Origin: Octopus vulgaris
Lineage: Eukaryota
Length of the DNA: 64,000 bases
Assembly: GCA_951406725.2 (NCBI GenBank)
Contig: OX597816.1
Coordinates: 46,438,001 to 46,502,000 of the forward strand
Direction of reading: 5' to 3'
Shown here: positions 42,011 to 45,384 of the stretch, in pieces
Position numbering within the stretch: the stretch's first letter is position 1
Layout: each line of letters opens with the position of its first letter
The notes under the pieces: generated by a model
Told to the model about the DNA's origin: nothing
Seen by the model: only the letters and a program-made list of their open reading frames with translations
The model's database searches: none
Translations under genes and position numbers: made by a program

Positions 42011-43706
42011 GGAATATTTCCCCAGGAAAATATCAGGTACCAACGACTTCTGCCTCATTGGAGTGTATTTTAAACAGGTATCACAAAAGATTATTGATTT
42101 GCCAAAGATTATTGATTTTGCTCGAGTAGGTTAAGGATTCAAAAACCACTGGCCAAGAAGAATGTGATGAAAAAGTGTATAACATAGTTTTCACCTAACA
42201 AATTCCATTCACAAAGCTCAAGTTATTTGTGAACCCAAGGCTGCTGTAGAAGACATTTACCCAAGGTAACGTGCGGTGGGATCGAACCTAGAATCATGTA
42301 ACTGCGAAACGAAATTCTTAACCACCCTTTTATATTTGTGTCTGGAATTTATTTATCTATTTCACGAAAAGGTATGATAAACATATTTTAGTCAATTCAT
42401 AGAAGGTTCATAATCAGAGGCATTCATCAACGAGAAATCATTTCTCTTGACTTTCAGCAAGATATAATTGGTGTGGTGATGCTCATGCATTTCCAGATTA
42501 AAGCACTTAGATTATAGCACATAGTTTCAGGCAAATAGAGTGGTGATATAGAGGCTTCCTGAATGTCAAGCCATCCAGGAAGCCGCTATATCGCCACTCT
42601 ATTTGCCTGAAACAGGAATTGCATATCTTAAAGATTACACCTCTACCACCTAAAAGCAAGGAAAGGATGCATTACGTAATGTAGACATAGATAATCCTAA
42701 AAAGAGGTGATAGTCACGGCTGGAACGTCGTTGGTCATAGATCTGCGCGGTGATTCCCTGGAGCGAAATCGACAAGTATAACAAATTAATTAGGTTTTAT
42801 TTGCTACAGACCTTACTCCTCAACCTAGAACCCTTGCAAATCTTAAACTGAAAATTCCGACTCTTAATCCTTTGGTTAACAACAAATATGGCTAAAGCAT
42901 GATCTATAAGAAGGGAAGAAATGCAGAAAGCCCGACATACCATAGGTATGACTAGAACTATATTACCAAATATATTCTTTCTTTATTCAAGACAGTTGTG
43001 TGCGATTTGAGGGATATTTGACATCTATTTCTAATAAACCCATCGGCCATATTAAGGGCCTCCTTGTCGGCTTTTATATCTATAACATTATGGCAAATGA
43101 TGTAGTATCGATTATCATTTCCCGATAACCCAATCTGTGGCTGACGTTGATGCTATTTCACTTACAGCTTAATCGGAATTGGCCTTGGGCTAAGCAACAC
43201 AACTAAAGCTAGTTGCTTATCAGCACCCGTCTCTTTTAAAATTATATTCCACAAAAACCATTGAACTCAACACTGCAAATTAACGTAGCACTCCTGAAAT
43301 TTTGGGTCTTCCCGCTACCTGCAGCAATCAGTAATTTAGCTCTGCAGTACTTATTTGCAGGTGAGTGAACAAGAGCACTGGACGTTAAGGGTACTGGCAA
43401 CGCATCGTTAAACACAGGTGACTCAACTAGGTCTGTCGATCTACTATGAGTAGTGACCAAATTTTCAAACCCCACCGCAAAGAAGAACACTTTGGATAAT
43501 GTTGTCCCTGATACATACACACACACACACACACACACACACACACACACACACACACACACACACACACACATATATATATATATATATATATATATAT
43601 ATATATATATATAAAACGGTAAGATAACAAAAGAAAGAAAGAGACCTCAATATTATGTAAATAGAGGAAATTTATCTATACAATATGTTACATTACTCGG
43701 TAGTCA

Positions 43707-43769
43707 AGATAAAACTCTGAGTTTCAGATGCCGAAGTGGAAATCCACAACACCATCTCTTCGGTTATCT
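43707..43769 (-). ncRNA. Mirror copy of the CCGA-core hammerhead motif
   Basis: Reverse complement of 45234-45296. Confidence 0.7.
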
Positions 43770-43964
43770 GGCTATTTGAAAACGTTATGAAAAAATACCG
43801 TTAAAAATGAAGGGAAATTACTCTGTTATAACTCTGCTTTGCCTGCGTACTTATACATCGCTCGCATTTTTCGTCATAAAAATTATATAAAAATACATAA
43901 AAAATATATAAAAATATATAAAAATATATAAAATCTTCTTGGGACATAACACAGAAAGCATGTT

Positions 43965-44498
43965 CTATCCGTTTTCTTTAGGGGACCAAAAACGTAACAG
44001 AAATTTAGTCACATGTGGGCATGATCCGAAAAGTTCTGTCCTTGTATTTAGACATGTGGTAGGGTCTAAGCTGCTTTTCCAGATAAGCCATCTCTCCATG
44101 TCGCATAAACCGCACCTTCCGCTGCCGTTAGTATAGGGCTTACATCTGGCCAAAATCTTCCATTGTATGTTATAATCGACACCTTTATCTCTTAAAGACC
44201 AAATATGATTGGATAATTGTGTCGCTTTTCTTTTGTTCCAGTGCCTAAAGCTCAAAGTGTGGTTATTGAACCTGGTCTTGAAATTACCCTCTGTCAGGCC
44301 CACGTATTTCTTCGTCAAAACGGTGTCTTTAGTGGTTATAGAGTTTACGGTAGCCTCATATATGATGGTCTTGGACATGCAAGCTCCATTTAGCGGGCAC
44401 AATTCTTTATTCCTGCATGAACAGCTGTTTTCTTCTTGTGTTTTTTGTATGTTATGATTGATTATGTTTTTAAAATTGGTAGTTGAACTAAAACTAAT
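43965..44498 (-). CDS. Mirror copy of the truncated PLE GIY-YIG ORF
   Basis: Reverse complement of 44505-45038 with one amino acid difference (KTRF vs KARF). Confidence 0.85.
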   Translation of the reverse strand: MSFSSTTNFKNIINHNIQKTQEENSCSCRNKELCPLNGACMSKTIIYEATVNSITTKDTVLTKKYVGLTEGNFKTRFNNHTLSFRHWNKRKATQLSNHIWSLRDKGVDYNIQWKILARCKPYTNGSGRCGLCDMERWLIWKSSLDPTTCLNTRTELFGSCPHVTKFLLRFWSPKENG

Positions 44499-44504
44499 TT
44501 TTAA

Positions 44505-45038
44505 ATTAGTTTTAGTTCAACTACCAATTTTAAAAACATAATCAATCATAACATACAAAAAACACAAGAAGAAAACAGCTGTTCATGCAGGAATAAAGAA
44601 TTGTGCCCGCTAAATGGAGCTTGCATGTCCAAGACCATCATATATGAGGCTACCGTAAACTCTATAACCACTAAAGACACCGTTTTGACGAAGAAATACG
44701 TGGGCCTGACAGAGGGTAATTTCAAGGCCAGGTTCAATAACCACACTTTGAGCTTTAGGCACTGGAACAAAAGAAAAGCGACACAATTATCCAATCATAT
44801 TTGGTCTTTAAGAGATAAAGGTGTCGATTATAACATACAATGGAAGATTTTGGCCAGATGTAAGCCCTATACTAACGGCAGCGGAAGGTGCGGTTTATGC
44901 GACATGGAGAGATGGCTTATCTGGAAAAGCAGCTTAGACCCTACCACATGTCTAAATACAAGGACAGAACTTTTCGGATCATGCCCACATGTGACTAAAT
45001 TTCTGTTACGTTTTTGGTCCCCTAAAGAAAACGGATAG
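44505..45038 (+). CDS. Truncated PLE ORF C-terminus: linker plus GIY-YIG endonuclease (no start codon)
   Basis: Frame is open from the hairpin tip: ISFSSTTNFKNIINHN...CSCRNKELCPLNGAC...IIYEATV...KYVGLTEGNFKARFNNH...CGLCDMERWLI...LNTRTE. The CxCx5C linker fits Nematis-type PLEs as I recall them. Confidence 0.85.
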   Translation: MSFSSTTNFKNIINHNIQKTQEENSCSCRNKELCPLNGACMSKTIIYEATVNSITTKDTVLTKKYVGLTEGNFKARFNNHTLSFRHWNKRKATQLSNHIWSLRDKGVDYNIQWKILARCKPYTNGSGRCGLCDMERWLIWKSSLDPTTCLNTRTELFGSCPHVTKFLLRFWSPKENG

Positions 45039-45233
45039 AACATGCTTTCTGTGTTATGTCCCAAGAAGATTTTATATATTTTTATATATTTTTATATATT
45101 TTTTATGTATTTTTATATAATTTTTATGACGAAAAATGCGAGCGATGTATAAGTACGCAGGCAAAGCAGAGTTATAACAGAGTAATTTCCCTTCATTTTT
45201 AACGGTATTTTTTCATAACGTTTTCAAATAGCC

Positions 45234-45296
45234 AGATAACCGAAGAGATGGTGTTGTGGATTTCCACTTCGGCATCTGAAACTCAGAGTTTTATCT
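45234..45296 (+). ncRNA. Type I hammerhead ribozyme motif, CCGA core variant
   Basis: agataa-CCGAAGA-gatg..catc-t-GAA-ACTC a GAGT-T-ttatct. Stem I agataa/ttatct, stem II gatg/catc, stem III ACTC/GAGT. Lies in the PLE 3' UTR. Confidence 0.7.
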
Positions 45297-45384
45297 TGAC
45301 TACCGAGTAATGTAACATATTGTATAGATATATATATATATATATATATATATATATATATATATATATATATATATATATATA

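What the first reader, a model, noticed from the sequence alone, without database searches (positions are those of the whole stretch)
43611..45330. 1.66 kb almost perfect palindrome of a GIY-YIG Penelope-like element with a 2 nt loop
Seen: 828 bp arms, no indels, one mismatch noticed. The ORF is open right up to the hairpin tip, both arms end in a hammerhead, and (TA)n flanks both sides. Known: PLEs often form inverted 5'-truncated insertions. Inference: a very recent insertion formed by cDNA snap-back priming, implying an active family. It would be cruciform-prone and, if transcribed, a long dsRNA substrate for ADAR or Dicer.
Basis: partly seen in the sequence, partly recalled or inferred. 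Interest (0 to 1): 0.7.

Follow-up and report, generated by a model that had tools for sequence, protein, structure and literature searches.

The report
Twin-primed Hydra Penelope retrotransposon palindrome
This 1.66-kb mirror-image sequence is one of over a thousand young insertions of a known kind of jumping gene (a Hydra-clade Penelope element), and its sister copies indicate that the two arms were likely copied separately from one RNA, primed from both ends of a DNA break, rather than by one copy folding back on itself.

Summary
The palindrome is in the assembly as described: 828-bp arms (43673-44500, 44503-45330), a TT loop, one mismatch, (TA)n flanks, a hammerhead motif in each arm. It is a 5'-truncated head-to-head insertion of a very young Hydra-clade Penelope-like element (2.59-kb unit, 708-aa RT plus GIY-YIG; at least 1,361 long-end junctions; 5 intact ORFs among 22 full-length spans seen). 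Inverted insertions, tails and junction palindromes are known for PLEs. Across 140 sampled sites, inverted insertions carry one long and one short fixed end (99 by script, 1 short-short, 0 long-long), both arms nearly always share a haplotype, and either arm can be longer. That favours twin priming of one RNA over plain cDNA snap-back, though snap-back at a 5-bp micro-hairpin fits this one tip. The mismatch is a family polymorphism. Three loci are zero-loop palindromes centred exactly on the predicted hammerhead cut. Independent reads across the tip were not obtained. New member of a known kind with a testable mechanism.

The parts
43513..43613 (.). Left flank: (AC)30 followed by (AT)20 target repeat
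43611..43672 (-). 62-nt PLE 'tail' present on this arm only; runs to the family's long (L) end, here the minor variant at unit position 2481 (23 exact junctions in the genome against 1,338 at 2486)
43673..44500 (-). Left arm, 828 bp: 3' part of the Hydra-clade PLE (unit positions 1592-2419), antisense
43707..43769 (-). Type I hammerhead motif, mirror copy
   Evidence: by eye against the Hydra HHR table of PMC8557442; coordinates
43965..44500 (-). C-terminal ORF fragment: CxCX5C linker and GIY-YIG endonuclease, no RT, no start codon; frame stays open to 44516
44276..44276 (-). The single mismatch (partner 44727): unit position 1816, A in this arm, G in the other; a family polymorphism (A in 6 loci, G in 70)
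44496..44507 (.). Tip: 5-nt microhomology on each side of a TT loop, a micro-hairpin native to the element (unit 1585-1596); this junction occurs once in the genome
44503..45330 (+). Right arm, 828 bp, sense, ending at the family's short (S) end, unit position 2419 (594 exact junctions, plus 428 of a 4-nt shorter variant)
44505..45038 (+). C-terminal ORF fragment (177 aa): linker and GIY-YIG endonuclease
45234..45296 (+). Type I hammerhead motif of the Hydra pattern (6-bp stem I, core with U4-to-C change, extended stem II, extra U before GAAA, palindromic 4-bp stem III); predicted cut after 45290 (unit 2379/2380)
45323..45384 (.). Right flank: (TA)31 target repeat

Best explanation
The palindrome is a young, 5'-truncated, head-to-head insertion of a Hydra-clade Penelope-like retrotransposon into a (TA)n repeat, likely made by twin priming, in which the two strands of the cut target would each prime reverse transcription on one element RNA at two fixed sites about 65 nt apart. 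Shown: family, youth, target, one long and one short end per inverted insertion, shared haplotype of the arms, short microhomology at the joints. Inferred: the GIY-YIG domain cuts both strands of (TA)n; one 3' end primes at the long site (unit 2481-2486), the other at the short site (2415-2419); both cDNAs run 5' along the same RNA, the long-site one displacing the other; they stop independently or at the RNA's 5' end; their 3' ends are joined head to head through 0-8 nt of microhomology or small inserts. Here both stopped within 7 nt of each other and joined through a native 5-nt microhomology, which gives a near-perfect palindrome; the 62-nt tail is the distance between the two priming sites. 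The copy lacks RT and a start codon, so it is a dead-on-arrival product, not a functional hairpin gene.
For: Family: 708-aa RT (YKDD) plus C-terminal GIY-YIG in a 2.59-kb unit; Hydra diagnostics met; model pLDDT 93.8 matches RT folds including telomerases. Youth: 40 of 40 scored matches at about 100% identity from 1,493 candidates; 5 intact ORFs among 22 full-length spans. End rule: of 100 short-end sites 77 have an inverted outer arm ending at the long site (2 more by eye), 1 at a short-type end, 18 scored as no inverted arm, 3 run off the locus; of 40 long-end sites 22 have an inverted arm ending at the short site, none at the long site; chance of this from the 43% short-end share 2e-18 and 3e-9. 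One template: 21 of 1,165 polymorphic-site comparisons differ between arms (1.8%) against 11.8% in shuffled pairs; 48 of 59 informative insertions fully concordant; 26 short-short, 40 long-long, 4 mixed (Fisher p 1e-14). Two separate cDNAs: short-end arm longer in 18, long-end arm longer in 20 of 38 long insertions; tail-only forms exist (L022, L143, L180, L131, L137); zero-loop, zero-microhomology palindromes L070 and L100. Joints: mean microhomology 2.2 nt (42 joints without inserts) against 0.75 random. Near-symmetry is in excess: 5 of 39 long insertions within 25 nt without this locus, 0.84 expected, p 0.0014. Biochemical precedent: the anole PLE cuts and extends both target strands and starts RT at two adjacent internal sites whose spacing is the tail (PMC11167929).
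Against: The tip of this locus alone fits snap-back equally well (long-end arm longer, native 5-bp stem). Its arms differ at a family polymorphism, so they match two sister haplotypes, which one RNA does not explain without conversion, template switch or a consensus error; 11 of 59 informative insertions have at least one such site and L053 has six. In vitro the anole enzyme showed no strand preference for either start site, so the one-long-one-short rule rests on genome counts only. A joint of two cDNA ends and a fold-back give the same sequence in single cases. The samples are the first listed places on contigs C1-C3, not random draws. No read across the tip was seen.
Confidence: 0.6

Rival explanations
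1. cDNA snap-back (first reader; akin to the self-priming idea of Arkhipova et al. 2013): the cDNA primed at the long site stopped at unit 1585, folded back on its own 5-nt microhomology and was copied back to the short site, which then engaged the second target end.
For: Native micro-hairpin exactly at the tip, 5-nt microhomology (0.8% or less at random); long-end arm is the longer one here; near-symmetric joints are in excess; arms share haplotypes and 11 private variants; palindromes at inverted junctions were read as self-priming in PMC3846280.
Against: Short-end arm is longer in 18 of 38 long insertions and yet carries a long-end partner; zero-loop joints without microhomology (L070, L100, and the L100 joint at three loci); the 12-nt tip does not fold as DNA (0 kcal/mol; forced 4-bp form +0.2 to +0.5); the arms here differ at a family polymorphism.
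Confidence: 0.2
2. All inverted insertions are born as perfect palindromes and later lose their centres asymmetrically (cruciform centre-break, recalled from mammalian palindrome work); this locus is an untrimmed young one.
For: Near-symmetric insertions have fewer arm mismatches, 1.4 against 2.6 per kb; short palindromes, expected to be more stable, are nearly all symmetric.
Against: The difference is not significant (9 against 32 insertions, p 0.24) and 9 of 32 asymmetric ones have no arm mismatch; it does not explain the two fixed outer ends or tail-only forms.
Confidence: 0.07
3. Assembly or read artefact: a fold-back chimera, or two nearby copies collapsed and polished into a mirror image.
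For: No contig of 6 public runs laid in two calls bridged the tip in the listed pieces (inconclusive by the tool's own terms); 17 of 22 full-length spans have broken frames, several from single-base indels, so consensus errors in young copies are possible.
Against: The flanks differ; the two outer ends obey the family's long-short rule, which a chimera would not; the mismatch is an allele found in 5 other loci; the tip sits on a microhomology as other joints do.
Confidence: 0.07
4. Two different RNAs from sister source copies were primed at the two target ends, or an existing hairpin RNA was retro-copied whole.
For: The arms match two existing haplotypes at unit 1816; L053 has six discordant sites; L072 and L120 share one tip at two loci; L133 looks like a copied, edited hairpin.
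Against: Two RNAs would not give near-equal truncation or the long-short rule; this tip occurs once in the genome; position 1816 has a 5' G, a context ADAR disfavours (recalled).
Confidence: 0.06

Closest known systems
Hydra clade of C-terminal EN+ Penelope-like elements, nearest named family Hydra-1_Obim of Octopus bimaculoides (Craig et al. 2021, PMC8557442; seen: abstract, passages, section 11, supplement searches)
   Same: Under 3 kb, single ORF of about 710 aa, RWK, DKT, CxCX5C, CxxC and CxH motifs, no CCHH, (TA)n target, hammerhead with extra U before GAAA; long shared stretches with Hydra-1_Obim by eye.
   Different: A separate family: different hammerhead sequence with a U4-to-C core change, three motif searches in the supplement found no match; has tandem units and pLTRs (none noted for Hydra-1_Obim); over 1,300 near-identical insertions; tail of 62-67 nt instead of 30-40.
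Canonical PLE insertion architecture: inverted 5'-truncated copy, optional tail, palindromes at the inverted junction (Arkhipova et al. 2013, PMC3846280, passages; Craig et al. 2021)
   Same: Head-to-head arms, tail on one arm only, junction palindromes.
   Different: There read as self-priming or endonuclease resolution; here the counts point to two primed cDNAs, and the palindrome is 828 bp per arm against 18-38 bp.
Anole Poseidon PLE in vitro (Frangieh et al. 2024, PMC11167929; seen: parts 1-2 of 4)
   Same: Both target strands cut and extended, AT-rich target, two adjacent internal RT start sites that define the tail.
   Different: Other clade; start sites lie inside the ORF there and in the pLTR here; inverted products and the one-long-one-short rule are not addressed in the parts read; they found no RNA ends at the hammerhead cut, whereas copies here start at it.
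L1 twin priming (recalled, no call)
   Same: Both target ends prime one RNA; inversion joined through microhomology.
   Different: In L1 the second primer lands at variable internal sites and the two parts do not overlap; here both sites are fixed near the 3' end and both arms repeat the same sequence.
PLE hammerheads and the circular-RNA model (Cervera and de la Pena 2014, PMC4209133, parts 1-2 of 4; bioRxiv 10.64898/2026.07.22.740005, part 1 of 5)
   Same: Type I hammerhead with palindromic stem III in the pLTR; head-to-tail tandem units.
   Different: This is the autonomous coding element, not a retrozyme; RNA circles were not tested.

Membership tests
EN+ Penelope-like element | Single ORF with telomerase-like RT and C-terminal GIY-YIG | tested here: met
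   708-aa ORF in sister copies; fold matches RTs, telomerases at 6 of the top 10 ranks; GIY-YIG Pfam hit weak, below cut-off; full protein has no Pfam or PDB sequence hit
EN+ Penelope-like element | Tandem or partial-tandem units (pLTR), inverted 5'-truncated copy, tail at one end | tested here: met
EN+ Penelope-like element | Hammerhead motif in the pLTR | tested here: met
   Motif read by eye, same layout as Hydra rows of File S2; stems I and II seen in the centroid fold, z only -1.55; no Rfam hit; core has U4-to-C
EN+ Penelope-like element | Hammerhead self-cleavage | not testable with these tools
   Indirect only: 8 arm ends in the bin 2380-2384 against 10 in the seven bins before it; 3 of 5 symmetric joints in that zone lie exactly on the cut
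Hydra clade | RWK motif and DKG changed to DKT | tested here: met
Hydra clade | CxCX5C linker; CxxC and CxH around the conserved E and N; no CCHH | tested here: met
   visible in the window ORF and alignment
Hydra clade | Under 3 kb, insertion into (TA)n | tested here: met
   2,590-bp unit; junction counts
Hydra clade | Phylogenetic placement with named Hydra RTs | not tested
   No tree built; named sequences compared by eye only
Naiad/Chlamys | N-terminal GIY-YIG, no canonical hammerhead | tested here: not met
   EN is C-terminal
Non-LTR retrozyme | Non-coding tandem hammerhead repeat | tested here: not met
   Arms are coding fragments of an autonomous element

The most novel reading that the evidence does not exclude
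This active family records the PLE integration mechanism in vivo: every inverted insertion is made by one RNA primed once at each of two fixed sites by the two ends of the break; the hammerhead does cut in the germ line and its 3' product serves as template (zero-loop palindromes centred on the cut at three loci); and the resulting hairpins are transcribed, A-to-I edited and sometimes copied back into the genome (L133), so the element seeds hundreds of dsRNA-forming palindromes.
Probability: 0.3. Interest if true: 0.72.

Novelty: new member of a known kind. Interest (0 to 1): 0.45.

Why it matters
How Penelope-like elements make their inverted copies and tails, and whether their hammerheads cut in vivo, are named as open in PMC8557442 and PMC11167929. 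A family with more than a thousand nearly unmutated insertions turns these into countable questions, and its counts favour twin priming over self-priming. The locus itself is a dead fragment; its worth is as an extreme case in that series and as a possible source of long dsRNA or a fragile site.

Tried and rejected
Rfam found no hammerhead at gathering or E up to 10. Read support for the tip: contigs of runs X1, X3, X2, X7 and X1, X3, X17, X11 gave no listed piece bridging it; these are contigs, partly listed, possibly of other individuals, so no verdict. No RNA holder listed. No PDB sequence relative below E 0.1. No host gene: 112 of the window's longer non-repetitive frames gave one Pfam hit, an old PLE endonuclease; short exons would be missed. 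Age against asymmetry: not significant. More edited copies like L133: two degenerate patterns found only L133 and two single-change copies; its lack of 5' G neighbours is uninformative (p 0.26). Naiad and retrozyme readings rejected on domain order and coding content. The mismatch as a private error rejected. Target-site duplication cannot be read inside (TA)n. 11 of 82 junctions failed exact anchoring and were left out; only 59 insertions had three or more informative sites.

Full report
Observation. The inverted repeat is in the assembly: arms 43673-44500 and 44503-45330, 828 bp, no indels, one mismatch (44276/44727), loop TT. Both frames are open to the tip and encode a linker and GIY-YIG endonuclease fragment. 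(AC)30(AT)20 lies left and (TA)31 right. A type I hammerhead motif sits 34 nt before the right end and 96 nt before the left end; Rfam misses it, but its layout, with an extra U before GAAA and a palindromic stem III, matches the Hydra rows in the supplement of PMC8557442 except for a U4-to-C change.

What it is. The arm has 1,493 candidates in the 2.8-Gb genome G000; all 40 scored are about 100% identical. Sister loci show a 2,590-bp unit in tandems with a 708-aa ORF, RT (YKDD) then GIY-YIG; 5 of 22 full-length spans fetched are intact. The protein has 1,016 relatives at E 0.001 or better, the best 120 at 40-52% identity. It carries every Hydra-clade diagnostic listed in section 11 of PMC8557442 and resembles Hydra-1_Obim by eye, without being that family. 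The model (pLDDT 93.8) matches RT folds, telomerases prominent. Earlier notes of this scan call the genome an octopus; I did not test that. Positions below are on a natural intact copy, L031:6017-8606, ATG = 1.

The two ends. Copies end at two fixed places, both into (TA)n: a long end at 2486 (1,338 exact junctions; 23 more at 2481, the type here) and a short end at 2419 (594; 428 more of a 4-nt shorter variant). I fetched the first 100 listed short-end sites (contigs C1-C3) and 40 of the first 56 listed long-end sites, skipping 16 already paired with the first set. Of the 100, 77 have an inverted outer arm ending at the long site, two more (L131, L137) a very short long-end tail by eye, one (L115) a short-type end, one an internal end, 18 were scored as having no inverted arm (including L131 and L137) and 3 run off the locus. 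Of the 40, 22 have an inverted arm ending at the short site, none at the long site, 16 none, 2 other. Chance gives this at 2e-18 and 3e-9. The locus here follows the rule.

One template, two copies. The arms of one insertion share haplotype: 21 of 1,165 site comparisons differ against 11.8% in shuffles; 48 of 59 informative insertions agree fully. Arm lengths are coupled: 26 short-short, 40 long-long, 4 mixed of 70. Near-symmetry exceeds chance among long ones (5 of 39 within 25 nt without this locus, 0.84 expected, p 0.0014) and among short ones (11 of 26 within 5 nt, 4.2 expected, p 0.0005). Yet either arm can be longer: short-end arm in 18, long-end arm in 20 of 38. A cDNA primed at the short site has no template for the tail, and one primed at the long site has none for sequence beyond its own stop, so one fold-back cannot make the first group (inference). 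Tail-only forms (L022, L143, L180) look like classic twin priming. Five of 33 near-symmetric joints have no loop, two of them (L070, L100) also no microhomology. Joints without inserts use 2.2 nt of microhomology on average against 0.75 at random. PMC11167929 shows that a PLE protein cuts and extends both target strands and starts at two adjacent internal RNA sites that define the tail. Together these make twin priming of one RNA the best reading, about 0.6 for this locus.

Against it. This tip falls on a native 5-nt microhomology with the long-end arm 7 nt longer, exactly what snap-back predicts, although the 12-mer does not fold as DNA. The single mismatch is unit position 1816, A in 6 loci and G in 70; the left arm matches the L094/L113/L118 haplotype and the right arm the L136 haplotype. 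Neither one RNA nor one cDNA explains that without conversion, a template switch or a consensus error; it does argue against a read chimera. Self-priming was proposed for PLE junction palindromes in PMC3846280. No independent read across the tip was seen (inconclusive). The tip occurs once in the genome.

Template ends. 5' ends cluster at 2290-2345 and at 2380-2384; full-length copies reach back to 2300-2330 of the preceding unit (L181, L035, L105), so a start of transcription near 2300 is likely (inference). The predicted hammerhead cut is after 2379. The bin 2380-2384 holds 8 arm ends against 10 in the seven bins before it (Poisson p 1e-4, blast-level ends), and a zero-loop palindrome centred exactly on the cut occurs at three loci, 3 of the 5 symmetric joints in that zone. 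This is indirect evidence that the ribozyme cuts in vivo; PMC11167929 found no such ends in anole RNA.

dsRNA. Nothing shows that this locus is transcribed. One short sister palindrome, L133, has 8 of 8 substitutions T-to-C in one arm and one A-to-G in the other, all A-to-G on one strand, as expected for a retro-copied A-to-I edited hairpin; it is a single case and could be a consensus error.

Novelty. Clade, inverted insertion, tail and junction palindromes are in print. Searches for twin priming or two-cDNA models of PLE inversions and for edited genomic copies listed nothing to the point (open-licence library only, supplements of bioRxiv not seen). L1 twin priming, centre-break trimming and ADAR neighbour preference are recalled, not from calls. 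Earlier AI notes on this genome report the same long-short rule; they are not independent support. Verdict: real, a new and very active member of a known clade; the locus is ordinary, the series around it makes an open mechanistic question testable. Interest 0.45.

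Noticed in passing
L133 (G000:C2:206324644-206331044): Short perfect palindrome of this family with nine A-to-G changes on one strand across both arms; looks like an A-to-I edited hairpin RNA copied into the genome. No second case found.
   Followed up: partly
G000:C2:44676843, C3:33467616, C20:25694338: Zero-loop palindromes centred exactly on the predicted hammerhead cut at three loci.
   Followed up: partly
L072 (G000:C1:121443298) and L120 (G000:C2:106499311): Identical inverted junction at two loci, the only two in the genome; recurrence or re-mobilisation of a palindromic unit.
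   Followed up: partly
L044-L141: 26 of 70 two-arm insertions are short (arms about 40-200 bp) hammerhead palindromes; by extrapolation some hundreds in the genome. The long end lies inside an AATAAA at unit 2483.
   Followed up: partly
L053 (G000:C1:57208776-57222591): About 13.8-kb long-short insertion with multi-unit arms of two different haplotypes.
   Followed up: no
window 8453-9489 (-): Old, broken Hydra-type PLE fragment: GIY-YIG E 0.00038, 33% identical to the young endonuclease.
   Followed up: partly
window 44470-45325: Runs labelled as nine different organisms hold 79-95% of the element's words: close species, mixed samples or horizontal spread; of the two non-A runs laid, X7 gave no contig and X11 one.
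   Followed up: no
window 60321-60393 (-): tRNA match, 66.6 bits.
   Followed up: no
window 36811-37257: 2.5 tandem copies of a 172-bp unit.
   Followed up: no
L031-L036: Many otherwise identical copies have single-base indels that break the frame; RT slippage or residual assembly error.
   Followed up: no
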